DNA of 64,000 nucleotides from an archaeon (GTDB lineage: Archaea; Thermoproteota; Nitrososphaeria; Nitrososphaerales; Gagatemarchaeaceae). The stretch covers positions 10,981-74,980 of the forward strand of contig JAKAUC010000007.1 of assembly GCA_021827865.1 (NCBI GenBank), given 5' to 3'. Below, piece by piece: positions 2,846 to 50,932 of this stretch (positions are counted from its first letter, which is position 1; each line of letters opens with the position of its first letter). The notes beneath the pieces are model-generated. The model was not told the origin of the DNA. It did not search any database and worked only from the letters and a program-made list of their open reading frames with translations. The position numbers and the translations under genes were made by a program.

Positions 2846-2953
2846 TGGGGTCGCCCGGATTTGAACCGGGGGTCTCAAGCGGCCTCGGCCCCCCAGCCAC
2901 GACTGATGGGACACCCAAGGCTTGAAGCCTAGACCAGACTAGCCGACGACCCC
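2846..2953 (-). tRNA. tRNA-Pro(UGG) with a 32-nt intron at the canonical 37/38 position (about 2882-2913)
   Basis: Hand fold. Acceptor GGGGTCG/CGACCCC, discriminator A. D stem GGCT/GGCT with G:U pairs. Anticodon stem CAAGC/GCTTG, loop CTTGGG|intron|C. Variable loop AGACC. T arm CCCGG-TTCAAAT-CCGGG. Confidence 0.8.
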
Positions 2954-2981
2954 GACCTTCCTCGGTCCAATCCTGAGATAG

Positions 2982-3587
2982 TTATGGGTTCTGGGGAGAT
3001 GATGGCCTTCCCCTTGAGACGAAGCGGTTCCCTCGTTCGAAGAACCTCCACCTTGTTGACCTCCCAGCCGACACGCCCACTCTGGGGCTTGTCCCGATTT
3101 CTCTGGCCATCCGGCCGTGCTCCAAGAAGATCCTGTCTGACATGACCAAGTCTTCTCCGTCCAGTTCCTTGCCTATGCCCAGGGCCTTCGTCAGGTTTCC
3201 AGGGCCCGAGGCCAGTCTGTCGACTGCAATTGGCCCCCTATTCTTCACCATCACTGCGATTCCCTCTTCCGGTTCAATCGCCCTCAGCAGTACCGCGCCC
3301 GGGGTTCCAGTAGGCTCCGTGGTGACGTTAAGGCAGAAGTGCATGCCCATGGTGAAGTAGACGTAGGCATGCCCCGGCGGTCCGAACATCACGCCGTTCC
3401 GGGATGTCTTCCCTCTGTACGCGTGACTTGCAGGGTCCTTCGGGCCCCTGTATGCCTCAGTCTCGACGACTATCCCTGATATCCTCCTGCCGCGTATAAC
3501 CCTGACAAGGCGGCACCCGACCAGGTCACTTGCCACCTCGGGGGTGTACCGGCAGAAGAACTCCCTCGGGATAACGCTCCGCTTCAA
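2982..3587 (-). CDS. mpg: DNA-3-methyladenine glycosylase (AAG/Mpg family)
   Basis: IVVETEAYRGPKDPASHAYRGKTSRNGVMFGPPGHAYVYFTMGMHFCLNV is the typical Mpg core. Confidence 0.85.
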   Translation of the reverse strand: MKRSVIPREFFCRYTPEVASDLVGCRLVRVIRGRRISGIVVETEAYRGPKDPASHAYRGKTSRNGVMFGPPGHAYVYFTMGMHFCLNVTTEPTGTPGAVLLRAIEPEEGIAVMVKNRGPIAVDRLASGPGNLTKALGIGKELDGEDLVMSDRIFLEHGRMAREIGTSPRVGVSAGRSTRWRFFERGNRFVSRGRPSSPQNP

Positions 3588-3759
3588 ACTCGCCCGGGTT
3601 CCGTCTTCTTCCGTTAATTAACCAGAGCGGGGTGTCCGACATGCGATGAAAATCCTGGCCGACCTCCAGCTCCGCTCGAAGTTCGCGATGGCCACCAGGC
3701 AAGGCCATGGACCTTGAGCACCTCGCGTCAAGGAAGGGGAAGGTAAGGGTGAAGCCTGA

Positions 3760-4656
3760 CTACGGCGTGTACGGCGTCCCTGAAATGGGGTAGCCGACCA
3801 TGCTGCCCCTCCCCATCCTGGTGTAGACCGGGAGTGCAGCGAGGTAGAATCCGAGAAACAGCGCGTACCCTATCCAGTTGTGGACCCCCCAGAACGCTGA
3901 AGCTCCGTCAACGTACCCCACCCACATCAGAAGCAGTATCCTGAGGGAATTGAGAAGTGTTAGGATGGCTATCCCGGCGACTGCGACTATGGCCGTCGAC
4001 CGTAGGTCCTTCTTCATGTCCATGTGCATGAGCGCGAGGAGACCGACGAAAGTGGTTATCGAGATGATGCTCGAGCAGCCAGGCGCAACGTAACCGGCTA
4101 CAACGTCTCCAGTTCTAGAAAACAGCTGGAACTGGGTACCCTGCCAAACCACTGGCAGGCCTGCCAGGCCGACGAACCTCGAAGCGAGGACCGACGACGC
4201 GTAGGCCAAGGGCTCGCCGAAGGCCCACTGAAGCACAAACGGGGCTCCTATCCCAGCCGAGTAGATGGCGGCGTAGGGGAGCAGGATTCTCTTCGTCAGG
4301 GGGTTGACCACCAGGGAGGAAGCGTAGAGCGTCAGGACGACGGCGACTCCCGCTGTTTCCACGGTCTGGGCCGTTAGAGGCTCGCCCAGCCATAGCAACA
4401 CCAGAATCCCTGCGCCCAGGGCTCTTATCCGGAGCTGGGTCGTGGCCCCTCCTTCGGCCGCAAGCACATCCCGGAGCTCGTTCCATCTCAGCGCGAAGAT
4501 GAGGGTGAGCAGCGCGGCGAAAGGGATAGCTGGGAAGACGCTGCCGAACGTGTCTCCCAGTGACTGGTCCAGAAGGCTGAGGAAATTTGGCGCGGTGGCC
4601 AGGCAGAGGGCCGTTCCCGCCCCAATCCAGACGACAAGCCTGACAGCGGCCTTCAA
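3760..4656 (-). CDS. Archaeosortase/exosortase-family polytopic membrane transpeptidase
   Basis: Multi-TM protein with PGCSSI (active-site Cys context), NSLRILLL (Arg) and HNWIGY (His). It sits adjacent to a cargo-like gene. Confidence 0.7.
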   Translation of the reverse strand: MKAAVRLVVWIGAGTALCLATAPNFLSLLDQSLGDTFGSVFPAIPFAALLTLIFALRWNELRDVLAAEGGATTQLRIRALGAGILVLLWLGEPLTAQTVETAGVAVVLTLYASSLVVNPLTKRILLPYAAIYSAGIGAPFVLQWAFGEPLAYASSVLASRFVGLAGLPVVWQGTQFQLFSRTGDVVAGYVAPGCSSIISITTFVGLLALMHMDMKKDLRSTAIVAVAGIAILTLLNSLRILLLMWVGYVDGASAFWGVHNWIGYALFLGFYLAALPVYTRMGRGSMVGYPISGTPYTP

Positions 4657-4669
4657 CTGTCCGCCACTT

Positions 4670-5317
4670 TCACCTGGTGACCGCAGGCACGCCCCGGACG
4701 GATGCCCTCTTCATCACCAGGTACGCCGAGACTATCGCCAAGACGAAGACGCCTAGCAGGGCCGCCTGGAACGGGAACACAGGTATCCCGCCGCCCCCCT
4801 TGGTGGAGCTGGTGCTAGAAGCCGAGGTGGTGGCGCTGGAAGAGGTCGAGACGGTCGTGGTGCTCGATGTCGATGTAATCTGGGAACTTGAGGTGTTGGA
4901 AGTGCTCGAGGTGGTGGATGTGACTGCGGTCGGCGTGTATTGGAATGTCGCCTCGGCACTGACTTGCGGAGGATAGGCTCCCCAGGTGGCGTTTACGGAA
5001 TACGTCCCTGCAATCCAGCCCGAGTTCCCGCCGGCGACTAAAGTGTAGTTGTAGAGACCAGTGGAGGCCCCGACCGGAGCCTCCCCCGGCGCGACGACTG
5101 CTCCGTGCGGGTTGATTATCTCCAAGAAGACGGCGGTGTTCGGCCCGGGGGGTGGTGACACCTTCCCTGAGATCTGGATCGCCTGTCCGTACACATACGA
5201 GGGCTTGTCAGTCGAGACAGTCAGCGTGTAGGACGTCTGGGCCATCGCTCCCTGGGCAGCGAGGACGAAGGCCAAGAAAAGCAGCAATGCGGAAGCTGCG
5301 TGGCGCCTGTGGGTCAC
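4670..5317 (-). CDS. Secreted Ser/Thr-rich surface protein with a C-terminal sorting-signal-like tail (putative archaeosortase substrate)
   Basis: Signal peptide ALLLFLAFVLAAQGAMA, a beta-rich domain and a long S/T linker. Then GGGGIPVFPFQAALLGVFVLAIVSAYLVMKRA, which is motif + TM + basic tail. Confidence 0.7.
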   Translation of the reverse strand: MTHRRHAASALLLFLAFVLAAQGAMAQTSYTLTVSTDKPSYVYGQAIQISGKVSPPPGPNTAVFLEIINPHGAVVAPGEAPVGASTGLYNYTLVAGGNSGWIAGTYSVNATWGAYPPQVSAEATFQYTPTAVTSTTSSTSNTSSSQITSTSSTTTVSTSSSATTSASSTSSTKGGGGIPVFPFQAALLGVFVLAIVSAYLVMKRASVRGVPAVTR

Positions 5318-5386
5318 GATTGCCTTCAGCCGCCGACTCTCTATATAATTGTAACATGATGAACGCCCAGTCTAGGAGTTGGTGCG

Positions 5387-5517
5387 TGGGGGTAGTCGGA
5401 TTTGAACCGACGGTCTACAGGTTTCTTAGGCAGCTCCAATGTCAAGTCATCCACGTTTCCGTGTCAGCCATTGGTGTCACTGGAGCCTGTCGCCCTGCCT
5501 GGCTGGGCTATACCCCC
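5387..5517 (-). tRNA. tRNA-Trp(CCA) with a 57-nt intron (about 5423-5479) carrying a K-turn / box C'-D'-like element
   Basis: Hand fold. GGGGGTA/TACCCCC, D arm GCCC-AGCCAGGCA-GGGC, anticodon stem ACAGG/CCTGT, loop CTCCAG|intron|A, T arm GTCGG-TTCAAAT-CCGAC. The intron contains CUGA-CACG-GAAA-CGUG-GAUGA and UUGGAGC, which is antisense to the anticodon loop. Confidence 0.85.
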
Positions 5518-5563
5518 AACACGACCGCCGGGCCAACTGCAGGTGCCTTTAGAGTTTCCGAGG

Positions 5564-5842
5564 TCAGCCAGTGAGGCTCCACGGCTTCCCGCCATGGACA
5601 ACATTCTCCGGCAGCCTGGCGCTCCATTTCTCGAGGAAGCTCATGTCCTCCTTCCTGTTTCTCAGGTTGTCTGGGAGCATGACCGGAATCTCGTCGATGA
5701 TGGGGTAGTACCTCCCGCACTGAGAGCACAGCAGGACGCCATCGACCACGACGTCGGGCTCCCGGACGCCGAACTCGATCATCTCCAGCGGATAGTGCTT
5801 GTCCATGGGACAGGCGAGTATGTCGAGGAGCTTCTTCTGCAT
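5564..5842 (-). CDS. Trm112-family small zinc-binding methyltransferase activator
   Basis: MQKKLLDILACPMDK...LLCSQCGRYYPIIDEIPVML is the classic Trm112/UPF0434 pattern. Confidence 0.8.
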   Translation of the reverse strand: MQKKLLDILACPMDKHYPLEMIEFGVREPDVVVDGVLLCSQCGRYYPIIDEIPVMLPDNLRNRKEDMSFLEKWSARLPENVVHGGKPWSLTG

Positions 5843-5921
5843 CCCCCCGCATGCTTCAAATCATGTAAAAAACGCTTGGTGGGCCAGGAAACGTTAATCT
5901 ACCGCGGCGGGACCCCTCACT

Positions 5922-6040
5922 TCAGCCGGCCATAGCGCGTGGGTCCGACCCAGACTCGTTCCGATCCTGGCAGTCAAACCGCGCGTCGCCCCGGTGCTAC
6001 TGACTTCCGAGAGGAGTCGGGAAGCCGAGGTGCCGGCGCC
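5922..6040 (+). rRNA. 5S rRNA, stand-alone; ends approximate to within about 5 nt
   Basis: GCCGGCCATAGCGCGTGGG...GTTCCGATCCTGGCAGTCAAACCGCGCG...CTACTGACTTCCGAGAGGAGTCGGGAAGCCGAGGTGCCGGC. The terminal helix GCCGGC/GCCGGC and the CATAGC, TTCCGA, ACTG and GGGAAGC blocks match archaeal 5S as I remember it. Confidence 0.8.
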
Positions 6041-6123
6041 TTCTTCTAAAAATCCCAGTTTTCATTGAAGATATCCTACAGAACATTTAAGTCCGGGTTT
6101 ACGGCGTCGGACTTCGTAATTTC

Positions 6124-7248
6124 ATGTCTGTTCTTGAGGGTGGAATTCTTCAGGTGTTTGGAGGCGCCAACGTCTCCGACCTTGTCACCCTCGTGTGGAT
6201 TGCATTCTTCGCGCTCACCTTCCTCTATCAGACCAGGATACAGTCCTACTTGGCCCTGAGCGAGATAAGCCGTGGTCTCAACAAGCTCAGGGTGATGAAG
6301 GACAAGGCGAGAAAGGACGCGATAGACTACTTGGTGGACGTCGGCAAAGCGCCGAGCGACCCCACTCAGAGAGTGGACCAGTTCCTCGATTACGTCACCA
6401 TCATGCCCGTGGACATGGACCCGGCCGGCATCGTAGGGAAGATCGACCACGTAGTGACGACCAACAACGACAGGGTCAGGACTGAGGTTGGCGCACTGCT
6501 CAACCAGAACAATCCGGTCACCGTCTCAATCAGCGAGAACCTGCTAGAGGTCGCCACTTCCCTCAACCAGATTCACAAAATCGTCCGCCACTACTACCTC
6601 CTGGGGAAGAAGACCAATTCGTACTTCACCCTCGTCCAGCTGCAGATGCTCATGCCGATGATAATCCAGGAGGCAGACGCCCTCCTCAACGCGGTCGACT
6701 CTTTCAAGCTGGGACAGCCTGTCGGGGACGGGATTGGCCCGGTCGTGGTTTCCAGGTTAATGGCCGGGAACGAAAAGCGCGTCGTAGCCAAAGACACCAT
6801 GATGGCGATTACCGAGTACAAGGGGCGGAAGCTCTACGTCCTGAAAGCTGACGGCCCCATGGCCTACGTGGGGCAGCCGGGGGTGGCCATCCAGAAGATC
6901 GTCACGGAGATGGGCGTCAAACCGAGCGCCATAGTGATGATCGATGCGGCCCTGAAGCTCGAAGGGGAGAAGACAGGGGAGATAGCGGAAGGTGTCGGCG
7001 CCGCGATCGGTGGCATCGGGGTGGAGAAGTTCCAGATTGAAGAGGCAGCCACCAAGGCCAAGGTTCCGCTGTATGCCATTCTCGTGAAACAGAGCCTCCT
7101 TGAGGCGATCACGGTGATGAGGAAGGAGATTGCCGAAGCGGCGGACAAGGTCACGCAGGTGCTGAACAGGGTCATCGAAGAGAAGACGAAGGAAGGGGAC
7201 GACGTGGTGGTCGCCGGAATAGGCAACACGCTGGGTGTAGCGCAATGA
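6124..7248 (+). CDS. Conserved archaeal membrane-anchored protein (DUF1512-like), function unknown
   Basis: 374 aa with an N-terminal TM segment (LVTLVWIAFFALTFLY). Size and architecture match what I recall for the archaeal DUF1512 family. The assignment is from memory only. Confidence 0.5.
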   Translation: MSVLEGGILQVFGGANVSDLVTLVWIAFFALTFLYQTRIQSYLALSEISRGLNKLRVMKDKARKDAIDYLVDVGKAPSDPTQRVDQFLDYVTIMPVDMDPAGIVGKIDHVVTTNNDRVRTEVGALLNQNNPVTVSISENLLEVATSLNQIHKIVRHYYLLGKKTNSYFTLVQLQMLMPMIIQEADALLNAVDSFKLGQPVGDGIGPVVVSRLMAGNEKRVVAKDTMMAITEYKGRKLYVLKADGPMAYVGQPGVAIQKIVTEMGVKPSAIVMIDAALKLEGEKTGEIAEGVGAAIGGIGVEKFQIEEAATKAKVPLYAILVKQSLLEAITVMRKEIAEAADKVTQVLNRVIEEKTKEGDDVVVAGIGNTLGVAQ

Positions 7249-7448
7249 TGAGTTCAGTTCCGGGGCCAGACAAGAAGACGAAGCTGCTGGTTTACACTAT
7301 CGAGGAATGTCCCGCCTGTGGACAGAAGACCAAACGCGCGTTCGCTGTCGGCGACTACGTGACAAAGGAGGCAGCGAAATGCGCGAAGTGCGGGAACCCT
7401 ACTCGGATAGGCTTGGTCTACGCCGAGAGCATGAAACCATCAGGTTAG
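7245..7448 (+). CDS. Small 4-Cys zinc-ribbon protein
   Basis: CPACGQKT...x22...CAKCGNPT. The ATGA overlap with the upstream gene suggests translational coupling. Confidence 0.55.
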   Translation: MMSSVPGPDKKTKLLVYTIEECPACGQKTKRAFAVGDYVTKEAAKCAKCGNPTRIGLVYAESMKPSG

Positions 7449-8342
7449 GACCACAAGGCCGCCCTCGTCGAGCGCCATCGTGTGCTCGAACTGAGCCACC
7501 GGGCTTCCAGAGGCCTCCACCAATGTCGGGTACGCCCTAACGATTTTCTTTGCGACAAGCCGTTCGACCATCCCAGCGACCTTCCGAGCGCCCAGCTCCG
7601 CCGCGTACCACCGCGGGGTGAACGGGAGGGTCTTGCGCTCGGCCCATACCATGTCAGCTAGCGCATCCAGCTCAGGCACGCCGGTCTTCTTCCTGGCCAC
7701 AATCGAGAAAATCGTCTTCGACGAGCCGTCGACGACGTAGCCTGCCGCGGTCCCGAAGGTGAGGAAAGGCTCGATGGCGAACACCTCTCCTTTCTTGAGA
7801 GGCTGCACGCCTGGCGTGAACAGGTTGGGTATGCTCTTCCCGGCGTGGACGACGTACCTATCCACGGTATGCCCGGTTAGGTTCTCTATCGTCTTGAATC
7901 CGAAGCGGGCCGCTTCCCTGTGGATCTCTCTCCCGATCTCGCCCGCTCGCTGGTCCCTCCTTGCTGTCGCTATGGCTGCCTCCAGGGACCTCCCAGTCGC
8001 TTCAAGGAGGAGGTTGTATTCCGGGTTATAGGTGACGCTCACCGAAGTGTCGGTGACATACCCGTCGACGTGGACCCCGAAATCCACCTTCACCAGGTCC
8101 CCCTCCCGAAAGACGGAGTCGTCTCCCTCCTGGGGGGCGTAGTGGGCGGTCACCTCGTTGACCCCGATTCCCGTAGGAAATGCCAGCCGGCCCCCGCGCG
8201 ACTCCACTTCCCGTTTCACAAAGTCGCAGATTTCGATGTACCCGACGCCAGGCTTGACAGCCGATCTCACCAACGACTTCACCTCGCCGGTGATTTTCCC
8301 TGACTTTCTGTACTCGTCCGGAATCAGCCCCAAATCTCTCAC
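7440..8342 (-). CDS. map: Methionine aminopeptidase, type 2 (archaeal)
   Basis: VTAHYAPQ...VKVDFGVHVDGYVTDTS...GHTVDRYVVHAGKSIPN...FAIEPF...AQFEHT. Confidence 0.9.
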   Translation of the reverse strand: MRDLGLIPDEYRKSGKITGEVKSLVRSAVKPGVGYIEICDFVKREVESRGGRLAFPTGIGVNEVTAHYAPQEGDDSVFREGDLVKVDFGVHVDGYVTDTSVSVTYNPEYNLLLEATGRSLEAAIATARRDQRAGEIGREIHREAARFGFKTIENLTGHTVDRYVVHAGKSIPNLFTPGVQPLKKGEVFAIEPFLTFGTAAGYVVDGSSKTIFSIVARKKTGVPELDALADMVWAERKTLPFTPRWYAAELGARKVAGMVERLVAKKIVRAYPTLVEASGSPVAQFEHTMALDEGGLVVLT

Positions 8343-8417
8343 AAATCCTTTATTCCGTTACGGGGTCAGCAGGTGTGCACGTGGTATTCAAATGATTTGC
8401 CGGGCGGCCCTCCATCC

Positions 8418-8918
8418 ATGAAGTTCAGGACAGTCGCGACAGGGGGCACATTCGATCACGTCCACCGAGGGCACCTCGCCCTCCTCTCTAGGAGCTTCGA
8501 TGTGGGTGATCGCGTGGTGATAGGGGTCACGTCGGACGCGTTCGCGCTGAAGGAAGGCAAGAACCCCGACCAGAGTTACGAGGAACGTATCCTCGCCTTG
8601 AAGGAGCTAATCGAGAGGAAGTTCCCCGGCAGAGACTATCTGATTGCGAAGCTCGATGACTACTTCGGCCCCGGCATAGAGTCTCCGGAGGTGGAAGCCA
8701 TCGTCGTTAGCCGGGAGACCGCACAGCGGGTGCACATCGCGAACGCGCTCAGGGAGGGCAAGGGATACCCTCCGCTCGAAGTGGTCGTCGTAGACTATGT
8801 CTTGGCTGAAGACTCGAAACCAATCTCGTCCACCAGGATCAGGCTGGGGGAGATCGACTCAGAGGGGAGTCTCACGAGGGGACACGCGGGGGATGTAGAA
8901 GAGCCGCCTCCCGAGTAG
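8418..8918 (+). CDS. coaD: Phosphopantetheine adenylyltransferase, archaeal type (cytidylyltransferase fold)
   Basis: MKFRTVATGGTFDHVHRGHLALL...VIGVTSD...ISSTRIR. The ATG at 8418 is preferred over the track start at 8373. Confidence 0.75.
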   Translation: MKFRTVATGGTFDHVHRGHLALLSRSFDVGDRVVIGVTSDAFALKEGKNPDQSYEERILALKELIERKFPGRDYLIAKLDDYFGPGIESPEVEAIVVSRETAQRVHIANALREGKGYPPLEVVVVDYVLAEDSKPISSTRIRLGEIDSEGSLTRGHAGDVEEPPPE

Positions 8919-8948
8919 TTAAATCAGAACGCCTGCAGGCGAGTCAAT

Positions 8949-10079: not shown

Positions 10080-10086
10080 GTTTAGA

Positions 10087-15195: not shown

Positions 15196-15204
15196 CCTGG
15201 TCCG

Positions 15205-17950: not shown

Positions 17951-18907
17951 ATGGGCGGATGTTCGGGCTGCGGAGGGAAGCCCTTCTACACAAGACGCTA
18001 CTCCGGCGAGGTACTTTGCGTCTCATGCTTCAACGACTCCATCGTGGAGAAGACCCGCAGGACCGTCTCGAAGTACAAGATGATACGGCCGCGGGAGAAG
18101 GTAGCGGTCGCTGTCTCTGGTGGAAAGGACAGCCTTTCGCTGCTCAAGGTGCTGACAGGGCTCTACGCGCCGAAGAGGAACAGCATGGTGGCGGTCTCGG
18201 TGGACGAGGGGGTCGCCGGGTACAGGGACGAGGCACTGTCGCACGCCCATTCCCTTGCGAATGAGCTCGGCGTCGAGCACTTGGTCGTCTCATACAAGGA
18301 GATGCTCGGGTTCTCGCTGGATGAAGCCCTGGACTGGAAGGGCGAGCGCGAAGCGTCCTCCTGCAGCTTCTGCGGGGTCTTCAGGCGAAGGGCCATCGAT
18401 GTGGCTGCGCTCAAGGTCGGGGCGTCGGTGGTGGCTACGGCCCACAACCTCGACGACTTCGTCCAGACGTTCATGATGAACCTCATGCACGGCGACGTCA
18501 CCCGACTCGGATGGCTCGATCCAAACCACTCGGACGGCTCGTTCTCCGTAAGGAGGGTCAAACCCTTCATGGAGCTGTACGAGGAGGAGGTCGCCCTCTA
18601 CGCCCACCAGGTGGGTGTCCCATTGCAGAGCGTGAGCTGCCCCTACATGCACGAAGGGCTCAGGAGTGAGGTCAGGGACTACCTCAACATGATGGAGGCG
18701 AATCACCCGGGGCTCAAGAACGTCATGCTGCGCAGCGGCCTCGACGTGATCTCCCACTACTCAGGCTCTCGGGAAAGGCAATCCGTTCCCTGCGCACAGT
18801 GCGGGAAGCCCTCGTCCAGCGGCCTTTGCGGCGTATGCAGGATGAAGGCGGCAGTGGAGGAACACGTTAAAAGCCGCGCTCAACCAACGGCGTTCGGCGG
18901 TGGGTAG
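17951..18907 (+). CDS. PP-loop ATPase, tRNA 2-thiolation protein (TtuA/NcsA family)
   Basis: N-terminal CSGCG...CVSCF, SGGKDS PP-loop, C-terminal CAQCG...CGVCR. The ATG at 17951 is used because the track extension to 17531 is antisense to the S2P gene. Confidence 0.8.
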   Translation: MGGCSGCGGKPFYTRRYSGEVLCVSCFNDSIVEKTRRTVSKYKMIRPREKVAVAVSGGKDSLSLLKVLTGLYAPKRNSMVAVSVDEGVAGYRDEALSHAHSLANELGVEHLVVSYKEMLGFSLDEALDWKGEREASSCSFCGVFRRRAIDVAALKVGASVVATAHNLDDFVQTFMMNLMHGDVTRLGWLDPNHSDGSFSVRRVKPFMELYEEEVALYAHQVGVPLQSVSCPYMHEGLRSEVRDYLNMMEANHPGLKNVMLRSGLDVISHYSGSRERQSVPCAQCGKPSSSGLCGVCRMKAAVEEHVKSRAQPTAFGGG

Positions 18908-19216
18908 GGCCGGGATGGTAGCCGTATCCCAGAGTGCTGAAACCGGCTTCATGCAGCGGCCAGCAACCCTCGGGTAAAGCCATCTTCCCCGTCACCCGCG
19001 CCGGGCTGGGGAGACGAACTCACGCCGGGGTGGGCGGTCATGAGGGGCAGCCCTCTCGAAGGAGAGGGCCTGACTCTTGATTGCCGAACCGGGCGAGATC
19101 CGGGAGGGAGCAGCCCTATGGCGACGTGGCCACGCTGCCTCGTCTACGTGGGGGATCCCTGGCCCGACGAGATGGGGGCGGAGAGTGATGGTGAGCTCCG
19201 GGGGATCTACCGCCGC
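18896..19216 (+). ncRNA. ffs: Signal recognition particle RNA (archaeal 7S/SRP RNA), about 320 nt
   Basis: The 5' GGCGGTGGGTAGGGCC pairs with the 3' ...CTACCGCC. The conserved helix-8-like block GATCCGGGAGGGAGCAGCC resembles the CCCGGAAGGGAGCA I recall from methanogen SRP RNA. A T-run follows (cacgttttt). Confidence 0.65.
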
Positions 19217-19254
19217 TCACGTTTTTAACACTCCGAAATCGCTGGTCACCTCGC

Positions 19255-19392
19255 GCAGGGGTAGCCTAGAGTCCTGGACGGGGAGCCTGGTAAGGCGCAG
19301 CCAGATGGGCGCAAGCTTGCTAAGCCTGTGTCTCTAACGGGACTCGTGGGTTCGAATCCCGCCTAAGGCGGGCGATAGTCCCACCCCCTGCG
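19255..19392 (+). tRNA. tRNA-Ser(GCU), class II, interrupted by three introns (D-loop about 19270-19285, anticodon stem 29/30 about 19301-19314, T-arm about 19358-19379)
   Basis: Hand fold. Acceptor GCAGGGG/CCCCTGC with discriminator G. After removing 16+14+22 nt the arms are as follows: D arm GCCT-AGCCTGGTA-AGGC; anticodon arm CAGGC-TTGCTAA-GCCTG; long variable arm TGTCTCTAACGGGACTC; T arm GTGGG-TTCGAAT-CCCAC. The mature length is 86 nt. Confidence 0.65.
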
Positions 19393-20834: not shown

Positions 20835-20925
20835 GGGCCGGTCGTCTAGCATGGTTAGGACGTCGCCCTTACACGGCGAAACGCTCCGCGCGCCAGGGTC
20901 GGTGGTTCGAATCCGCCCCGGCCCA
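20835..20925 (+). tRNA. tRNA-Val(UAC) with a 16-nt intron in the variable loop (about 20881-20896)
   Basis: GGGCCGG/CCGGCCC, D arm GTCT-AGCATGGTTA-GGAC, and an intact anticodon arm TCGCC-CTTACAC-GGCGA. There are 21 nt before T arm GGTGG-TTCGAAT-CCGCC where 5 are expected. Confidence 0.75.
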
Positions 20926-43998: not shown

Positions 43999-43999
43999 G

Positions 44000-45136: not shown

Positions 45137-45139
45137 CTC

Positions 45140-45406
45140 TTACACCAGCCCCATCTTGGTGGCGAGTTCCGCCGCCTTCCCCGCCTCGACCAGCCTGACG
45201 AACGCCTTCTTTCCCCTGGTCGTCCTCGAAGTGTTCACAGCGTCCACCTTGACTTCGTAGAGGGCCTGGACGGCATTGGCTATCTGCGTCTTGGTCACCC
45301 TGTCTTCTACCACGAAGCACAGCTTGTTCTCGCGCTCTATCTGGTCGAAGGTCCGCTCCGTCACATAGGGCCTCTTCAGAATCTTCTGGGCGTCCTCGAG
45401 CCTCAC
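45140..45406 (-). CDS. rpl23: 50S ribosomal protein L23
   Basis: ILKRPYVTERT...KLCFVVEDRVTKTQIANAVQALYEVKV. Confidence 0.9.
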   Translation of the reverse strand: MRLEDAQKILKRPYVTERTFDQIERENKLCFVVEDRVTKTQIANAVQALYEVKVDAVNTSRTTRGKKAFVRLVEAGKAAELATKMGLV

Positions 45407-46201
45407 CTAGGAGCCAACCCCCTTCACCTTGGAACCCAGCGCGCTGAGCGCCGACTCGGTCCAAATAGTTAGCCTTCCGGGGACCCCTCCCGGCGCAAGG
45501 TCCAACACGCTCAGGCTCTCGACCCTGGTGACTCCGACCCCCGGTATCCCACCGGCCGCCTTCCCGACTCCCCGGTCGTTGGTCACCACGATCAGTGGCC
45601 CCACGCGGGTCCTGTACGCCCTCCCCCTCAGGCGCCTCTTCCCCGAGTTGCGCTTGACATGGGAGTCTACCCTCTGGAGCTCGTCCTTCAGCTCGACCTT
45701 CTCAAGGAACGAAACCAACTCAACGGTCTTCTCCACGGTCTCGATGTCGTCGGCGACCACCATGGGGAGTGAGATCTTTGCAACCCTGTGCCCCCTGGCC
45801 TTGACCGCATCCACGTTGGCGGTAAATGCAATCGCCGAGTTGGTGGCGAGCCTGTTCTCCTTCTTGTTCACGCCGAGGTGAATGACCTTCTCAGACCTCG
45901 GCGGATGAGGCAGCCTCCCCTTCACCACGCTCGCTACCCCGGCCGCGAGCCCACTCTTCGAGTACCTCTCCCCCTTCACTCTGGGGATTCTGGACTGACC
46001 AGTGCCCGTAGGTGGGTTGTGGGTCTCCGCTGTCGTCCTTTCACCGGCCATCGGATCCCTCCCTTTCGGCTGGAGGTGGTGCGACCCCACCAGCCAGAAC
46101 ATGCGCTTCACCAGGTCAGGCCTAAGCTGCGTGGAGAACACTGCGGGGACCTCAACCTCACCCGACGTCTTCCCGTTCAGGTCGAGGACTATTGCCTTCA
46201 T
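45407..46201 (-). CDS. rpl4: 50S ribosomal protein L4
   Basis: 264 aa, ...PKGRDPMAGERTTAETHNPPTGTGQSRIPRV.... Position between L3 and L23. Confidence 0.9.
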   Translation of the reverse strand: MKAIVLDLNGKTSGEVEVPAVFSTQLRPDLVKRMFWLVGSHHLQPKGRDPMAGERTTAETHNPPTGTGQSRIPRVKGERYSKSGLAAGVASVVKGRLPHPPRSEKVIHLGVNKKENRLATNSAIAFTANVDAVKARGHRVAKISLPMVVADDIETVEKTVELVSFLEKVELKDELQRVDSHVKRNSGKRRLRGRAYRTRVGPLIVVTNDRGVGKAAGGIPGVGVTRVESLSVLDLAPGGVPGRLTIWTESALSALGSKVKGVGS

Positions 46202-47151
46202 CTGTTCCTCGCCATCGTGCTCACTTCGACCACCTGGGGTGGGTTCTGGTTCTTCGTGAATCCTCTCGCCCTCATCCTGACCATGACGAACCTGCGCGCC
46301 GGCCCGGGGACAGAGCCCCTCACCACCGCGTAGTCCCCGGCTACGTTGCCGAAGTGCTCGAATCCCCCGTTGGGCGTCACCGGCTTCGCCGACGCATTCC
46401 CGACCAACAGAATCCTCTTCCCGGTTTCAGTCCTCTGATGGAAGCCCATCTGCCCTGCCCTGGCGATGGTGTACATCACGGCAGCCGGGTGCCAGGGCCC
46501 GATCACTCCCACCGCCCTGACGCTCTTTCTGGACTTGTGCTGCTTCCTCTTGACTCCGAACCTAGTGATGGGGCCCTCGAAGCCTTTGCCCTTCGTGATG
46601 CCGAGGACGTCCACGTACATCCCGGCCTTGAACATGTCAGTGAACTTCACCTTCTTACCTATCAGGCCGAGGACGAACTCCGCCTGTCCCTTGAGATCCC
46701 CTCCGGACACCCCCACCTCCATGACGATGGGCTTCTTTTGCGACAGCCCCACGTCGCGGGGGATGGACGACACAAGCGCGGCCACCCTGCTCACGCTTTC
46801 GATGGGCAGCTTGTCGGGCGTCGTCTGGTTTGCCTGCTTGACGTCAGCGATCGCCATATCCTGGCCGTTCTCGTGCTTGTAGAGCCTCAGCCCCACCACC
46901 TGGGAGTCCGGGAGAGCCAGGACGCTGGAGATGTTGAATAGAGGCTTCCCGAAATTGGGGGTCTTGGCCCTGTCATCCACTGTAATCACGTGGGCAGTAC
47001 CTGCCTTGTAGCCAGGAAATCCCAGAAGAGTCGGCTTCTCCGACTCTACCTTGGGCCAGGTCCTTACCCTTGGTACGAGGCTCTTGGCGCGCCCTCTCGG
47101 CCTGTATGCGAGACTTCCCCGACGAGGCGCAGAATGCTTCCTATGACCCAA
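46198..47151 (-). CDS. rpl3: 50S ribosomal protein L3
   Basis: MGHRKHSAPRRGSLAYRPRGRA...GITKGKGFEGPITRFGV...AGQMGFHQRTE. Confidence 0.95.
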   Translation of the reverse strand: MGHRKHSAPRRGSLAYRPRGRAKSLVPRVRTWPKVESEKPTLLGFPGYKAGTAHVITVDDRAKTPNFGKPLFNISSVLALPDSQVVGLRLYKHENGQDMAIADVKQANQTTPDKLPIESVSRVAALVSSIPRDVGLSQKKPIVMEVGVSGGDLKGQAEFVLGLIGKKVKFTDMFKAGMYVDVLGITKGKGFEGPITRFGVKRKQHKSRKSVRAVGVIGPWHPAAVMYTIARAGQMGFHQRTETGKRILLVGNASAKPVTPNGGFEHFGNVAGDYAVVRGSVPGPARRFVMVRMRARGFTKNQNPPQVVEVSTMARNR

Positions 47152-47198
47152 ATCACGCCAAACCTTCCTTTTCCTAGGGCCCGTTTTACGGTTCGCAC

Positions 47199-48023
47199 TT
47201 AAGCTTTCCCGACTGAGACGACCCCCACGAGTCCCAAGCCTGCGGAGATTGCCTCCTCAGTCCTCACCGTCTCCACGTGCTGCTCCGGGTAGAGGTTCAC
47301 CACGAAGTCCACTTCGTCCTTCAGCTTCTGCCCGAAGATCTCGTAGAGCCCCCTGGACGGAGGGCCGAAGATCAGCTTGACCCCGTTCGCACCATTTATG
47401 GCCCGCCCGAGGGGCCCGAAGACGCTCCCCAGGGGCATTCCGAGGCGCGAGGTGGCGACCTTGACTTCGAACCTCTCGTCCTCCAACACGCCGGCGCAAG
47501 TCTTCTCTTCCACGCTGTACCCCCAATATGCCCCCGCCTCCTCCCTGGCCACCGTCGCCGCGGCAAGGGGCTTGACTGCGACGATCTTCACTGTGACGCG
47601 TCTCCCCACCGGGAACTTCCCATCCAGCCTCGCGCTGGCATCCAGTCCGAGGTCCACCGTCCCATCGTCGTTGGTCACGCCATCCCTGACGTCTCCCACG
47701 GCCACCCGGTCGAGAGGGACCCTCGCCTTATGGGATGGGATCCTGAGCGGCGGGAGGATGCCCGCGTACTTCAGAGATTCATCGAGGGGGTAGAGCCTTC
47801 GTCTCAGGTACTGGGGCGTCTCGAGATACTCGAGCACCTTGCGGACCAGCGGTCCCTCCCCTCCTCCTCTGGGGTCTCGGAATACCTCAATGACGTCCAC
47901 CCCGTATATTGCACAGGCCCTGGCAATCGTCCCCAGCTTCGCCGTCTTCTCTCTGGGCGACTCCTTCTCCTCAAGGACTGTGTCTGGGATAGAGATGGCC
48001 AGCTTCTTGCCGAGAAAGGCCAT
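47199..48023 (-). CDS. SPOUT-superfamily putative RNA methyltransferase (COG2106-like), the usual archaeal neighbour of rpl3
   Basis: LAISIPDTVLEEKESPREKTAKLGTIARACAIYGVDVIEVF. Also in the conserved position upstream of L3. Confidence 0.65.
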   Translation of the reverse strand: MAFLGKKLAISIPDTVLEEKESPREKTAKLGTIARACAIYGVDVIEVFRDPRGGGEGPLVRKVLEYLETPQYLRRRLYPLDESLKYAGILPPLRIPSHKARVPLDRVAVGDVRDGVTNDDGTVDLGLDASARLDGKFPVGRRVTVKIVAVKPLAAATVAREEAGAYWGYSVEEKTCAGVLEDERFEVKVATSRLGMPLGSVFGPLGRAINGANGVKLIFGPPSRGLYEIFGQKLKDEVDFVVNLYPEQHVETVRTEEAISAGLGLVGVVSVGKA

Positions 48024-48084
48024 GCGTCTTCGGTCGCTGCGCCGGATAATTCAGTCTTCCCCGCGCGGGTCCCATGCAAAGCAG

Positions 48085-49416
48085 ATGAACCGACGCGCTC
48101 AGGGGGGACTCATGGCGGCGGGATCAAGGCCGGGGAAGGACAGATGGCTCTACAGCACCTTCCCCGTCTCGGTGGCCACGGGCCCGCTGGGTACCATGGT
48201 GCTCCTCTACCTGATAGCACAGAACGGGCAGGCGCTGGGGACCATCTACGGCGGACTGGCGACGGCGGTCTACAACGGCATCAGCATACCCGCGGCTCTG
48301 TTCTGGGGGATCACCATCGACAGGTTGCACAAGCGGAGGGCCCTGATAGCGTTGAGCTATGCACTGACGGCCGCGGCGCTGGCGTCTTTCTTCTTCGGAG
48401 ACTCCGCTGCCGGGACGATCATGCGATACGGAATCATCTCCTTCGTCTCCTTCGCGTCGGCGACCCCTCTGAACCTCCTGATCATGGAGACGGAGCAGAA
48501 GAGTAGGTGGGCGAGCGCCTTCGCGAAACTCTCCATGGTTTCGAGCGTGGGCAACGTCGTCGGCTTGGTGGTCAGCACCCTGTGGACCGACGTCCTTCCC
48601 AGCCAGCTCGTCTTCCTCTTCGTCCCGATGGGGGCCCTGTCCCTGACTTCGTCGGTGATGGCCCTCCTGATGATCAAGGAGCCTGCCTTCGTGCTGGAGA
48701 GGGAGACCGTGGCGGCGAGGAGGCCGAGCTTCTTCTCCCGGCTCCTGGCCAACCCTGTCTTCTTCGTCGTCATCCCCTCCCTCTCCGACTTCAAGCGCGC
48801 TTTCCGCGGACTGCGTTCGACCCTGACCAGGGGCGCCCCGCTGTTCTACATCTCCACCATCCTCTTCTACGCGTCAAGCGGACTGTTCAACACTTCATTC
48901 GTCCCCGCCATGCACCTCTTCTCGCTCCCCGACCAAGACGTCTTCGCCGTCGTCCTGGTGGGGATGGCCGTCCAGACCCTGGCTTTCAGAGTGTCCGGGC
49001 GTTATGTGAGCACTCGGAGCCTCGTGACATCTTCGGTCCAAGGGCTCGTCCTCAGAGGATGGATGTATCTGGGGCTTGGAGTGGCCGCACTGCTGCTTAC
49101 TGGCCCCTTGTTTCTGATACCTGCCCTCATCCTATACCCTGTGGCCGGCGGGGTGGCCTTCGCCGTGTATTACACGTCGGCGAACACCATGATGTTCACA
49201 TCGGTGCAGAGCAGGTCGGCGGGCGCTGCCCTGGGGGTCTACTCCGCGGTGGTGGGGATCGCCTCCATGGCCGGTTCCTTCGCCTCAGGCTTCGTCTCCG
49301 TGTACGACGGGTACTATACGACGTTCATACTGGCGGCGTTGCTGCTCTTCGCAGCCGTAGGGGTCGTAGGGCGCCTCCCGACACCCTCGAGCCCTGACGA
49401 GAGCGCCCTCCAGTGA
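48085..49416 (+). CDS. MFS-type transporter
   Basis: About 12 hydrophobic segments. The ATG at 48085 (or 48112) is preferred because the track extension to 47839 is antisense to the SPOUT gene. Confidence 0.7.
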   Translation: MNRRAQGGLMAAGSRPGKDRWLYSTFPVSVATGPLGTMVLLYLIAQNGQALGTIYGGLATAVYNGISIPAALFWGITIDRLHKRRALIALSYALTAAALASFFFGDSAAGTIMRYGIISFVSFASATPLNLLIMETEQKSRWASAFAKLSMVSSVGNVVGLVVSTLWTDVLPSQLVFLFVPMGALSLTSSVMALLMIKEPAFVLERETVAARRPSFFSRLLANPVFFVVIPSLSDFKRAFRGLRSTLTRGAPLFYISTILFYASSGLFNTSFVPAMHLFSLPDQDVFAVVLVGMAVQTLAFRVSGRYVSTRSLVTSSVQGLVLRGWMYLGLGVAALLLTGPLFLIPALILYPVAGGVAFAVYYTSANTMMFTSVQSRSAGAALGVYSAVVGIASMAGSFASGFVSVYDGYYTTFILAALLLFAAVGVVGRLPTPSSPDESALQ

Positions 49417-49472
49417 CCCCCGGTCGCAGACCCGACCCGGCGCCGGCCGACACAAACCTTAAGTTAGCCATC

Positions 49473-49489
49473 ACCTAACCACGTTAGGT
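49473..49489. promoter_or_regulatory. Palindrome ACCTAAC-CAC-GTTAGGT upstream of the DtxR-like regulator gene (putative operator)
   Basis: Read directly. Flanking TTAGCC and TCTAA elements give a DtxR/IdeR-box-like region. Confidence 0.5.
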
Positions 49490-49499
49490 AGAATCTAAG

Positions 49500-49916
49500 A
49501 TGAGCCCAGGACTCAGCAGGAGAGAGTTGGACTGCGTCGAGGCGGTGTACTCCCTCTCTTCGAACGGCTGGCCGGCAAGGGTGAAGGACGTCGCTGGCAG
49601 GATGAGGGTGACCCCGCCGACTGCCGTCCAGTTCTTGGCAAAGCTGATCGACACGGACCTGGTCGAGAAGGGGCCGAGCGGGTACAAGCTCACGAAGAGC
49701 GGCGTCGAGTGCCTCAACGGGGCGACCAGGACACACAGGATCTTCGAGACCCTGCTGGTGAGGAACGGCTTCCCCCTGGAGGACGCTTGCAAAGTCTCAT
49801 CTTCGCTCACCGGCACGATAGACGAAACCGCCCTGGAGAAGCTTTGCTCTCATATGAGCCACCCTGACAAGTGCCCTCACGGAATGCCAATCCCCGGAGG
49901 CGCCAAGCATGTTTGA
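49500..49916 (+). CDS. DtxR-family metal-dependent regulator (short form)
   Basis: LDCVEAVYSLS...ARVKDVAGRMRVTPPTAVQFLAKL...LVEKGPSGYKLTKSG...THRIFE...CPHG. Confidence 0.75.
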   Translation: MSPGLSRRELDCVEAVYSLSSNGWPARVKDVAGRMRVTPPTAVQFLAKLIDTDLVEKGPSGYKLTKSGVECLNGATRTHRIFETLLVRNGFPLEDACKVSSSLTGTIDETALEKLCSHMSHPDKCPHGMPIPGGAKHV

Positions 49917-50820
49917 CCTGAACGCCCTCCTGCACCCCGCCTCAGGCCTCGCCGTCCCTGTTGTCCTGGGGATCGCCCTGATCCTTGGGATGCTCCACGG
50001 GCTGACGCCCGACGAGCACACTTGGCCGATTACGTTCAGCTACTCCGTGGGCAGCTACAGCACCAGGGGCGGCATGCGGGCGGGGTTCATGTTCTCCGGA
50101 GGGTTCACTGTCCAACGGACCATACTGGCAGCTCTCGGCTTCGCCGGCCTCGCCGCGGTCTACGAGACTTACAACCTCGACGGGTACGTCTACGTGCTGG
50201 TAGGCATAGGCATGCTCCTCGCGGGGTACTACCTCCTGAGGGGCACGGACGTGCACCTCCCTCTGGACAGGCTTCTGGGCGGCAAGGAGCACCACACGAC
50301 CAAGGCGGAGCGGCTCCCCATGCACGAGTCCGAGGAGACAGCCAAGCCTGTGCCGCTGAAGATGGCCACCGCTCACGGTTTCATCGCCGGCTGGGGGATA
50401 GGAGCCTATGCTAGCATAATCGTGTTCATACTCGCGCCACAGATGCCCAACATATTCTACGCCGCCCTGGTCGGCACCTTCTTCGGGATAGGGACCATGT
50501 TCATGCAGATAATCATCGGTTCAATCTTCGCCAACATAATGAGGGTCAAGAAGCTCACTGTCGAGCAGATAAAATACATCGGCAGGTCTGCGGCCGCAAG
50601 AACCCTCTACCTTGGCGGTCTCGCGTTCGCTGCCATCGGCGCGCTGATAGTGGCCTTCCCTTTCATTGATACCATGGCCGTAGGCACGGGTAACCCCATA
50701 CCCAACCTGTCCTCCGTCGGCATCTCTTCAGTACTGGTCCTCCTCACGGTGGGGGTGATCGGATTCGGGAACCTCTACCTTGGGTACAAAGAAATCACGA
50801 GCCCTTCTCGCGCTGGGTAA
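49909..50820 (+). CDS. Polytopic membrane protein, putative metal transporter (NicO/UreH-like)
   Basis: LHGLTPDEHTWPI resembles the H-x3-P-x-H metal motif of Ni/Co transporters. The gene is coupled to the DtxR-like gene by an 8-nt overlap. Confidence 0.45.
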   Translation: MFDLNALLHPASGLAVPVVLGIALILGMLHGLTPDEHTWPITFSYSVGSYSTRGGMRAGFMFSGGFTVQRTILAALGFAGLAAVYETYNLDGYVYVLVGIGMLLAGYYLLRGTDVHLPLDRLLGGKEHHTTKAERLPMHESEETAKPVPLKMATAHGFIAGWGIGAYASIIVFILAPQMPNIFYAALVGTFFGIGTMFMQIIIGSIFANIMRVKKLTVEQIKYIGRSAAARTLYLGGLAFAAIGALIVAFPFIDTMAVGTGNPIPNLSSVGISSVLVLLTVGVIGFGNLYLGYKEITSPSRAG

Positions 50821-50829
50821 GCACAAAAG

Positions 50830-50932
50830 TGGACCGGGGGGGATTCGGACCCCCGACCTCTCCCAGTCTGGATTTCTTTGCCAAGGGACTGGACGGAGCG
50901 ACCTGTATCCTACCAGACTAGACGACCGGCCC
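50830..50932 (-). tRNA. tRNA-Ala(GGC) with two introns (16 nt at 27/28, about 50889-50904; 13 nt next to the anticodon loop, about 50865-50877)
   Basis: Hand fold. Acceptor GGGCCGG/CCGGTCC with G3:U70 and A73. D arm GTCT-AGTCTGGTA-GGAT. After removing 16+13 nt the anticodon arm is CTCCC-TTGGCAA-GGGAG. Variable loop AGGTC. T arm GGGGG-TCCGAAT-CCCCC. Mature length 74 nt. Confidence 0.6.

What the first reader, a model, noticed from the sequence alone, without database searches (positions are those of the whole stretch)
2846..50932. Every tRNA gene in the window is split by introns (5 of 5 genes, about 8 introns)
By my hand folds the counts are Pro (1, canonical), Trp (1), Ser (3), Val (1, variable loop) and Ala (2). 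Most euryarchaeal genomes have introns in only a few tRNAs and at 37/38. Such density and positional diversity suggest a lineage with a permissive splicing endonuclease and a history of intron gain. It also means standard bacterial-mode tRNA finders would miss or mis-type most tRNAs of this genome.
Basis: inference. Interest (0 to 1): 0.6.

Follow-up and report, generated by a model that had tools for sequence, protein, structure and literature searches.

The report
Intron-riddled tRNA genes, soil thaumarchaeon
All five tRNA genes in this stretch really are interrupted by eight short protein-spliced introns; this is a known archaeal feature, but this non-ammonia-oxidising soil thaumarchaeon carries it at unusually high density across its whole genome (about 1.2 introns per tRNA gene).

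Summary
Observation confirmed exactly. The window holds 5 tRNA genes with 8 introns: Pro(UGG) 1, Trp(CCA) 1, Ser(GCU) 3, Val(UAC) 1, Ala(GGC) 2. Removing them restores canonical cloverleaves. Seven of the eight have a bulge-helix-bulge (BHB) or relaxed BHB junction. Orthologues in up to about 20 related genomes keep the exons while the introns diverge or are absent.

It is a genome-wide trait, not a local one. An intron-aware scan recovered all 46 archaeal tRNA species (53 genes including 7 co-binned duplicates). The non-redundant set has 55 introns in 46 genes, 76% of genes are interrupted, and 4 genes have three introns. A co-binned sister species has a four-intron tRNA-Arg(CCU).

The organism is not euryarchaeal. 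It is a non-ammonia-oxidising thaumarchaeon, probably Group I.1c. It has the broad-specificity (alpha-beta)2 splicing endonuclease with the specific loop, plus RtcB ligase.

Multi-intron tRNAs and this enzyme type are already described for Thaumarchaeota. The kind is known; the density exceeds published thaumarchaeal (0.40 per gene) and Thermoproteales (0.84) averages. I found no intron sequence families. This scan has noted four- and five-intron tRNA genes before in other genomes.

The parts
2846..2953 (-). tRNA-Pro(UGG) gene, 76-nt mature, one intron
   Evidence: ARAGORN -i, parser score 75; paralogue Pro(CGG) has same exons with a different 34-nt intron at the same site
2882..2913 (-). Pro intron, 32 nt, canonical 37/38, strict hBHBh' (central helix 4 bp, outer helices 7 and 5 bp)
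5387..5517 (-). tRNA-Trp(CCA) gene, 74-nt mature, one intron
   Evidence: Rfam tRNA 56.3 bits with 61-nt insert; ARAGORN -i; parser; identical anticodon arm in all 15 relatives that parsed
5423..5479 (-). Trp intron, 57 nt, 37/38; 3' junction relaxed here (2 of 4 central pairs, 3 of 4 in most relatives); carries CTGA / CACG-GAAA-CGTG / GATGA k-turn-like core
19255..19392 (+). tRNA-Ser(GCU) gene, class II, G73, 86-nt mature, three introns; missed by ARAGORN and Rfam
   Evidence: parser score 64; in the 19 genus genomes parsed the mature sequence is near-identical (differences almost all in the variable arm) with 1, 2 or 3 of these introns; an 86-nt orthologue of clearly different sequence has none in two other families
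19270..19285 (+). Ser intron 1, 16 nt, D-loop 15/16, relaxed HBh' (3 of 4 central pairs, 3-bp intron helix)
   Evidence: absent in G006, which fixes the boundaries
19301..19314 (+). Ser intron 2, 14 nt, anticodon stem 29/30, central helix 4 bp
19357..19378 (+). Ser intron 3, 22 nt, T-loop 59/60, hBHBh' (3/4, 5, 6); 17-52 nt in relatives, absent in five
20835..20925 (+). tRNA-Val(UAC) gene, 75-nt mature, one intron; default finders report it as a tRNA with a long variable arm
   Evidence: co-binned orthologue on C15 has same exon frame and a diverged intron
20881..20896 (+). Val intron, 16 nt, variable loop 44/45, BHB 4/2/3; removal leaves AGGTC
50830..50932 (-). tRNA-Ala(GGC) gene with G3:U70 and A73, 74-nt mature, two introns; missed by ARAGORN and Rfam
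   Evidence: parser score 61; same two-intron layout in 16 relatives, one relative has only 37/38
50889..50904 (-). Ala intron 1, 16 nt, anticodon stem 27/28, HBh' (4-bp central helix with the D-stem 3' strand)
50866..50878 (-). Ala intron 2, 13 nt, 37/38, hBH (4-bp central helix, anticodon stem as outer helix); mature loop UUGGCAU

Best explanation
The five genes are functional tRNA genes carrying archaeal protein-spliced introns.

Mechanism. In each precursor, the exon next to the 5' splice site pairs with the 3' part of the intron to form a 4-bp helix flanked by two 3-nt bulges (a strict or relaxed bulge-helix-bulge). A heterotetrameric (alpha-beta)2 splicing endonuclease cuts both bulges. 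Its catalytic subunit carries the specific loop with the conserved lysine that lets it accept relaxed motifs at any tRNA position. RtcB joins the exons.

Scope. The high load is a property of the whole genome and of its genus of non-ammonia-oxidising soil Thaumarchaeota. Introns have been gained or lost species by species, mostly at a few hot spots (15/16, 29-31, 37/38, 44-46, 59/60).

Basis. Shown: the gene structures, motifs, enzyme genes and comparative pattern. Inferred: the cleavage and ligation themselves, and the direction (gain versus loss).
For: Gene structures:
- Removing the eight segments restores complete cloverleaves with the right identity elements (G3:U70 for Ala; long arm and G73 for Ser).
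- ARAGORN recognises 53 of 53 spliced sequences with the same anticodon.
- BHB scores: central helix 4/4 in 5 introns, 3/4 in 2, 2/4 in Trp.

Genome-wide scan:
- It gives exactly the 46 archaeal tRNA species, and only if the interrupted genes are counted. True genes found by the scan score >=55 (the four-intron Arg scores 52 and Gly(UCC) was parsed by hand). The best spurious parse scores 50. The reversed-genome control peaks at 48.

Comparative evidence:
- Ser(GCU) exons are near-identical in 19 genus genomes parsed, while the introns vary in sequence, in length (17-52 nt) and in presence.
- The same holds for Ala(GGC), Trp and Arg(CCU).

Enzymes:
- There are two EndA paralogues. One is 185 aa, matches the A. 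pernix catalytic subunit at E 3e-43, and keeps Tyr/His/Lys and the loop lysine (aligned to K44). The other is 181 aa with the catalytic His replaced (K44/CSL role from PMC5829648).
- RtcB is present.
Against: - There is no RNA evidence.
- The Trp 3' junction is weak in this genome (2 of 4 central pairs).
- Several 15/16 introns have only relaxed motifs (3/4 central pairs, no exon outer helix).
- The parse of Lys(CUU) is ambiguous between one and two introns.
- Gly(UCC) was parsed by hand and has C33.
- The assembly is a MAG with 7.5% contamination. The duplicates come from a second species.
Confidence: 0.9

Rival explanations
1. The introns spread recently by transposition of BHB-intron families between tRNA genes, as proposed for Thermoproteales. 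The density would then reflect mobile introns.
For: - Introns recur at a few positions in unrelated tRNAs: 12 at 15/16 and 6 at 59/60.
- Presence or absence differs between species of one genus.
- Arg(CCU) and Arg(UCU) share introns at 15/16 and 45/46 with some similarity.
Against: - All-against-all local alignment of the 68 introns gives no non-orthologous pair above shuffled controls (best 22 against a null maximum of 23).
- Shared 3' ends are explained by the need to pair with similar exon sequence.
- The Arg pair are near-identical paralogous tRNA bodies.
- The introns are so short (median 17 nt) that the test has little power.
Confidence: 0.15
2. The interrupted genes are decaying pseudogenes or assembly artefacts, and the working tRNAs lie elsewhere.
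For: The genome is a MAG with 20 contigs and 7.5% contamination. Some T-loops have C55, and one gene has C33.
Against: - No intron-free copy of these isoacceptors exists in a 99% complete genome. The 46-species set is complete only with them.
- The exons are conserved and the layouts shared across many independent assemblies, including single-contig genomes.
Confidence: 0.03
3. Some insertions are not removed but kept in the mature tRNA, for example Val with an extra arm as ARAGORN and Rfam model it.
For: ARAGORN and Rfam accept Val as a 91-nt tRNA with a long variable region.
Against: - Val is a class I tRNA.
- The 16-nt segment forms a 4-bp central helix with two 3-nt bulges.
- Removal leaves the standard AGGTC loop, and the segment diverges in the orthologue while the exons do not.
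- Insertions within stems (27/28, 29/30) cannot be tolerated.
Confidence: 0.03

Closest known systems
Multiple and non-canonical BHB introns in tRNA genes of Thaumarchaeota (tRNAscan-SE 2.0 survey, PMC8450103; review PMC4090602)
   Same: Same phylum, the same kind of short introns at non-canonical positions, the same (alpha-beta)2 endonuclease type. tRNAscan-SE 2.0 even has a Thaumarchaeota-trained BHB model.
   Different: Published figures for 11 genomes are 0.40 introns per gene overall, 0.69 in Nitrososphaerales, and no gene with three introns (Table S7). Here there are 1.20 per gene (55/46), 76% of genes are interrupted, four genes have three introns, and a four-intron gene occurs in sister species. 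The lineage is a non-ammonia-oxidiser not covered by that survey.
Multi-intron tRNA genes of Thermoproteales (Sugahara 2008; Fujishima 2010; figures as cited in PMC8450103 and PMC4090602)
   Same: Comparable density. Up to three introns per gene. Shared hot spots such as 29/30, 30/31, 45/46 and 59/60. Relaxed hBH/HBh' motifs. CSL-bearing (alpha-beta)2 EndA.
   Different: - Different phylum, and a probable mesophile from soil or peat rather than a hyperthermophile.
- Density is above the Thermoproteales mean (0.84) but below Pyrobaculum calidifontis (71/46).
- No intron sequence families were detected.
- The D-loop 15/16 site dominates the non-canonical positions.
Aeropyrum pernix (alpha-beta)2 splicing endonuclease with Crenarchaea-specific loop (PDB 3P1Z/3AJV; PMC5829648)
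   Same: The catalytic subunit aligns end to end (E 3e-43) without a gap in the loop region. It keeps the catalytic Tyr/His/Lys and the lysine aligned to K44. A second, non-catalytic paralogue is present.
   Different: The beta subunit is closer in sequence to M. jannaschii and M. kandleri EndA than to crenarchaeal beta subunits. Activity and quaternary structure were not tested.

Membership tests
Archaeal protein-spliced (BHB) tRNA introns | Removal of the segment restores a canonical cloverleaf with correct identity elements | tested here: met
   53 of 53 spliced sequences are recognised by ARAGORN with the same anticodon.
Archaeal protein-spliced (BHB) tRNA introns | Two 3-nt bulges separated by a 4-bp helix at the exon-intron junctions (strict hBHBh' or relaxed hBH/HBh') | tested here: met
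   Window introns have a central helix of 4/4 (Pro, Ser-2, Val, Ala-1, Ala-2), 3/4 (Ser-1, Ser-3) or 2/4 (Trp; 3/4 in most relatives).
Archaeal protein-spliced (BHB) tRNA introns | Exons conserved, introns free to vary or be absent among orthologues | tested here: met
   Ser(GCU); Arg(CCU); Ala(GGC) and Trp.
Archaeal protein-spliced (BHB) tRNA introns | Splicing endonuclease and RtcB-type ligase encoded | tested here: met
   Two PF01974 genes and RtcB at E 1e-169.
Archaeal protein-spliced (BHB) tRNA introns | Spliced mature tRNA and excised intron observed as RNA | not testable with these tools
(alpha-beta)2 EndA with specific loop (broad substrate range) | Two paralogous subunits, only one with the catalytic Tyr/His/Lys | tested here: met
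   The alpha subunit keeps ...YEHGPGIDHAPY...VRK aligned to A. pernix (the H is the residue mutated in 3AJV). The beta subunit has KKPAKY where M. jannaschii has DKEHSVY.
(alpha-beta)2 EndA with specific loop (broad substrate range) | N-terminal loop insertion with conserved lysine (K44 of A. pernix) | tested here: met
   PLGIPKPKDFEFDAP aligns without gaps to PLDVEKPRGADFEGP, and the Lys is conserved. The role of K44 is taken from PMC5829648.
(alpha-beta)2 EndA with specific loop (broad substrate range) | Heterotetramer that cleaves relaxed motifs in vitro | not testable with these tools
   Needs protein biochemistry.
Transposed intron families (Thermoproteales model, Fujishima 2010) | Near-identical intron sequences in different tRNA species or positions | tested here: not met
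   The best non-orthologous pair scores 22 against a shuffled maximum of 23. The test has low power for 13-22-nt introns.
Box C/D guide RNA inside the tRNA-Trp intron (haloarchaeal type) | Box C/D and C'/D' motifs with guides placing the 2'-O-methylation target 5 nt from box D | tested here: inconclusive
   A CTGA...GATGA core around a conserved hairpin, and CATTGGAGCTGC complementary to the anticodon loop, are conserved in the genus. The terminal boxes are poor in this genome, and I did not test the spacing rule rigorously.

The most novel reading that the evidence does not exclude
This genus of non-ammonia-oxidising soil Thaumarchaeota (probably Group I.1c / Gagatemarchaeaceae) may be the most tRNA-intron-dense lineage outside Thermoproteales.

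- It includes a tRNA-Arg(CCU) gene with four introns in at least four species. That is above the published maximum of three.
- Introns are present or absent species by species, with at least two other families of the order lacking those of tRNA-Ser.
- If so, intron gain could be dated and its mechanism studied in a probable mesophile.
Probability: 0.6. Interest if true: 0.6.

Novelty: new member of a known kind. Interest (0 to 1): 0.42.

Why it matters
- Annotation. Default tRNA finders miss or mistype 31 of the 53 genes. MAG quality scores and codon-usage inferences for this abundant acid-soil lineage are therefore unreliable unless intron-aware tools are used.
- Evolution. Very high tRNA intron loads have so far been tied to hyperthermophilic Thermoproteales. 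A comparable load in a soil thaumarchaeon, with introns differing between sister species, weakens any link to hyperthermophily. It also offers dozens of closely related genomes in which gain and loss can be mapped.
- Enzymology. The genus provides natural substrates with three or four relaxed motifs per precursor, useful for studying the order of cleavage and the limits of the (alpha-beta)2 endonuclease.

Tried and rejected
- Default ARAGORN and Rfam tRNA were insufficient: they found 1 and 2 of the 5 genes.
- My first parser run over 1281 T-arm anchors timed out. I rewrote it with an acceptor pre-filter.
- The strict BHB filter missed Ala(UGC), Leu, Ile, Gly and Ser(CGA). I relaxed it and extended it to T-arm introns through a vectorised genome scan.
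- Val and Lys(UUU) parsed as long-variable-arm tRNAs. I rejected this because they are class I tRNAs.
- The Trp gene can alternatively be read as anticodon CGA, through a good HBh' motif at 34/35. I rejected this for three reasons: the body is class I with A73, a separate class II Ser(CGA) gene exists, and all relatives keep CUCCAGA.
- ARAGORN -i hits at C20:281419 and the parser hits scoring <=50 (introns of 45-130 nt, mostly over 60 nt, inside coding DNA) were treated as false.
- Intron clustering found no families.
- The amoA Pfam search was negative, but its control rang nowhere, so this is only weak evidence.
- Infernal hit lengths in other families were too crude a proxy to compare intron loads.
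- I did not run a census of a second, clean genome of the genus.
Full report
**What is in the window**

The window is 61% G+C. It carries an archaeal SRP RNA and a 5S rRNA.

Standard finders see few of the tRNA genes:
- Default ARAGORN reports one tRNA, Val, with a long "variable arm".
- Rfam's tRNA model reaches its threshold for two: Val, and a gene with a 61-nt insert.
- ARAGORN with anticodon-loop introns allowed finds three: Pro, Trp and Val.
- A T-loop motif search pointed to two more loci, next to the SRP RNA and at about 50.85 kb. I read both by eye.

I then wrote a parser that builds a cloverleaf module by module: acceptor, D arm, anticodon arm, variable region, T arm. It allows up to three or four introns. 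Each intron must satisfy bulge-helix-bulge (BHB) geometry: a 4-bp central helix between the four exon bases that precede the 5' bulge and the four intron bases that precede the 3' bulge, plus outer helices.

| Gene | Window position | Intron(s) | Site | BHB (central / exon helix / intron helix) |
|---|---|---|---|---|
| Pro(UGG) | 2846-2953(-) | 2882-2913, 32 nt | 37/38 | 4/7/5, strict |
| Trp(CCA) | 5387-5517(-) | 5423-5479, 57 nt | 37/38 | 2/5/1, relaxed |
| Ser(GCU) | 19255-19392(+) | 19270-19285, 16 nt | 15/16 | 3/0/3 |
| | | 19301-19314, 14 nt | 29/30 | 4/7/1 |
| | | 19357-19378, 22 nt | 59/60 | 3/5/6 |
| Val(UAC) | 20835-20925(+) | 20881-20896, 16 nt | 44/45 | 4/2/3 |
| Ala(GGC) | 50830-50932(-) | 50889-50904, 16 nt | 27/28 | 4/0/2 |
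| | | 50866-50878, 13 nt | 37/38 | 4/4/1 |

The spliced products have the expected identity marks: G3:U70 and A73 for Ala; a long extra arm and G73 for Ser.

- The Val intron lies at 44/45 by BHB geometry, not 45/46.
- The mature Ala anticodon loop is UUGGCAU, not UUGGCAA.

**Is it real? Genome-wide census and controls**

The whole assembly is 1.94 Mb in 20 contigs, 99% complete with 7.5% contamination. I scanned it from two sets of anchors:
- all T-arm-like anchors without introns;
- a vectorised search for T arms split by a BHB intron, plus relaxed T arms.

True genes separate cleanly from noise. Those found by the scan score >=55 and have introns of 13-57 nt. Spurious parses score <=50, have introns of 45-130 nt (mostly over 60) and lie inside coding DNA. 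The same pipeline on the reversed, non-complemented genome gave three parses of 45 or more, with a maximum of 48.

After hand curation of five awkward genes the result is as follows:
- 53 genes covering exactly the 46 tRNA species of a standard archaeal set (44 anticodons, with three kinds of CAU), plus 7 duplicates.
- All 53 genes: 68 introns, 23 at 37/38 and 45 elsewhere. By introns per gene: 11 genes with none, 23 with one, 13 with two, 5 with three, 1 with four.
- Median intron length is 17 nt.
- Hot spots are 15/16 (12 introns), 59/60 (6), 44-46 (8) and 29-31 (7).
- Without the duplicates: 46 genes and 55 introns (19 canonical, 36 non-canonical), or 1.20 per gene. 35 genes (76%) are interrupted, and four have three introns: Ser(GCU), Tyr, initiator Met and Val(GAC).

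ARAGORN in no-intron mode recognises all 53 spliced sequences with the same anticodon. On the unspliced genes its default mode gets 22 right, 4 wrong and misses 27.

So the window is not special. All seven tRNA genes of its contig are interrupted, but with 79% of genes interrupted genome-wide, five of five is unremarkable.

**Comparative evidence**

- Ser(GCU), parsed. The 86-nt mature sequence is near-identical in 19 genomes of the same genus; differences lie almost only in the variable arm. The three inserted segments differ in sequence, in hairpin loops and in length; the third is 17-52 nt.
  - 14 genomes have all three introns.
  - 4 genomes lack the 59/60 intron.
  - 1 genome has only the 29/30 intron.
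  - Of ten other families of the order tried, three gave a parsable gene: two have an uninterrupted gene and one has only a 37/38 intron.
- Ala(GGC). The two-intron layout is found in 16 relatives. One relative has only 37/38.
- Trp. The 37/38 intron (57-63 nt) is kept in all 15 parsed relatives, with an identical mature anticodon arm and a better 3' junction in most of them (3 of 4 central pairs). Seven relatives add a 15/16 intron.

Exons frozen while the inserts drift or come and go is the signature of spliced introns, and it fixes the boundaries. It also shows intron turnover within the genus. The uninterrupted outgroups favour gain, but I built no rooted tree.

**A four-intron gene**

One duplicate, tRNA-Arg(CCU) on contig C9 (42116-42256), needs four removals to give a cloverleaf: 17 nt at 15/16, 16 nt at 30/31, 13 nt at 37/38 and 20 nt at 45/46. 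The product is then identical, 75 of 75 bases, to the mature sequence of the one-intron copy on C13.

The same gene occurs in other species of the genus:
- 100% identical in genome G022 and 99% in G043 (100% complete, 2% contamination).
- 87-89% identical in G018, G020, G051 and G052. G018 and G020 parse cleanly with the same four sites, diverged intron loops and a near-identical mature sequence. G051 parses with four introns but an aberrant D arm. G052 was mis-split by the parser into three.
- G044, G021 and G006 have three of the four introns.

The C9 and C15 contigs carry exactly G022's intron sequences, and C9 is syntenic with C13:591-641 kb. The duplicates therefore belong to a co-binned sister species, not to the window's organism.

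The literature I could search gives three as the maximum per archaeal tRNA gene (PMC8450103). Notes of this scan record four- and five-intron tRNA-Tyr genes in other, marine archaeal genomes. I did not check those.

**What organism, what enzyme**

A 1002-aa protein of the window has its closest relatives (78-90% identity) in MAGs labelled Thaumarchaeota, Nitrososphaerota or Nitrososphaerales, from soils and peat. No amoA was found, but the control was uninformative. The G+C content, habitat and bin names fit the non-ammonia-oxidising Group I.1c / Gagatemarchaeaceae (GC 54-62%, PMC10640624). That assignment is an inference. The organism is not euryarchaeal.

The genome has two EndA genes, each with both Pfam endonuclease domains:
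- The 185-aa protein matches the catalytic alpha subunit of Aeropyrum pernix EndA at E 3e-43. It keeps the catalytic Tyr, His and Lys. It aligns without gaps through the Crenarchaea-specific loop, including the lysine equivalent to K44.
- The 181-aa protein has lost the catalytic His.

This is the (alpha-beta)2 architecture. According to PMC5829648 and PMC4090602 it is general in the TACK archaea, including Thaumarchaeota, and its loop lysine confers cleavage of relaxed, non-canonical motifs. RtcB is present.

**Intron families**

All-against-all local alignment of the 68 introns gave high scores only for orthologous pairs between the two co-binned species. The best non-orthologous pair scores 22, against a maximum of 23 in shuffled sets. 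Recurrent 3' ends (…GAG, …AAG) follow from pairing with similar D-stem or anticodon-stem sequence. I therefore find no support for transposition, though 13-22-nt introns give the test little power.

**How it compares**

Table S7 of the tRNAscan-SE 2.0 paper gives these figures:

| Group | Introns per tRNA gene |
|---|---|
| 11 Thaumarchaeota | 0.40 (no gene with three introns) |
| Nitrososphaerales | 0.69 |
| Thermoproteales | 0.84 |
| Euryarchaeota | 0.08 |
| Pyrobaculum calidifontis | 71 introns in 46 genes |
| This genome | 1.20 |

The kind of feature, the enzyme and even the phylum are thus known. What is new is the degree, the lineage (a probable mesophile from soil) and the species-level polymorphism.

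**Limits**

- Lys(CUU) may have one or two introns.
- Gly(UCC) was parsed by hand.
- My counts come from my own parser, not from tRNAscan-SE.
- The direction of intron change is not rooted.

Noticed in passing
G000 contig C9:42116-42256 (outside the window); also L061 (G022), L063 (G043), L064, L066: tRNA-Arg(CCU) gene with four introns (15/16, 30/31, 37/38, 45/46). Its mature sequence is identical to the one-intron copy at C13:591189-591277. The four-intron layout parses cleanly in four species of the genus. Published maximum is three introns per tRNA gene.
   Followed up: yes
G000 contigs C9, C15 (and C2 or C4): The MAG contains a second, co-binned species. C9 repeats the order Arg-Leu-Glu-Met of C13:591-641 kb, and C15 repeats Val-Ser of the window's contig. 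Their introns are identical to those of genome G022. This accounts for the 7 duplicate tRNA genes and probably for the 7.5% contamination.
   Followed up: partly
window 5423-5479 (-): The tRNA-Trp intron has a CTGA / CACG-GAAA-CGTG / GATGA k-turn-like (C'/D'-like) core and CATTGGAGCTGC complementary to the anticodon loop. Both are conserved in the genus. Relatives have a better box-C-like TGATGA. A competing HBh' motif would cut at 34/35.
   Followed up: partly
window 50841-50851 (-); also C18:47575, C13:446484, C13:287628, C13:312787, C15:13438: Six tRNA genes read TCCGAAT/TCCGAGT in the T-loop. That is C at position 55, where U (pseudouridine 55) is almost universal. In Ala(GGC) this varies among species of the genus (TTCGAAT, TCCAAAT).
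   Followed up: no
G000 C13:726592-726705 (outside the window): The only tRNA-Gly(UCC) gene has a 39-nt D-loop intron and an anticodon loop CCUCCAA, that is C33 instead of the near-universal U33.
   Followed up: no
G000 C13:591189-591277 and C13:698299-698410: tRNA-Arg(CCU) and tRNA-Arg(UCU) have almost identical bodies, differing at four positions including the anticodon. In relatives they share introns at 15/16, 30/31 and 45/46. This suggests recent duplication or gene conversion with an anticodon switch.
   Followed up: no
window 51799-51912 (+): Weak sub-threshold match to the SAM riboswitch model (25.7 bits against a gathering score of 44.4, E 0.2). Probably chance.
   Followed up: no
window 18898-19392 (+): The SRP RNA (18898-19212) is followed within about 40 nt by the three-intron tRNA-Ser. 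The 5S rRNA (5922-6041) lies about 400 nt from tRNA-Trp on the opposite strand.
   Followed up: no
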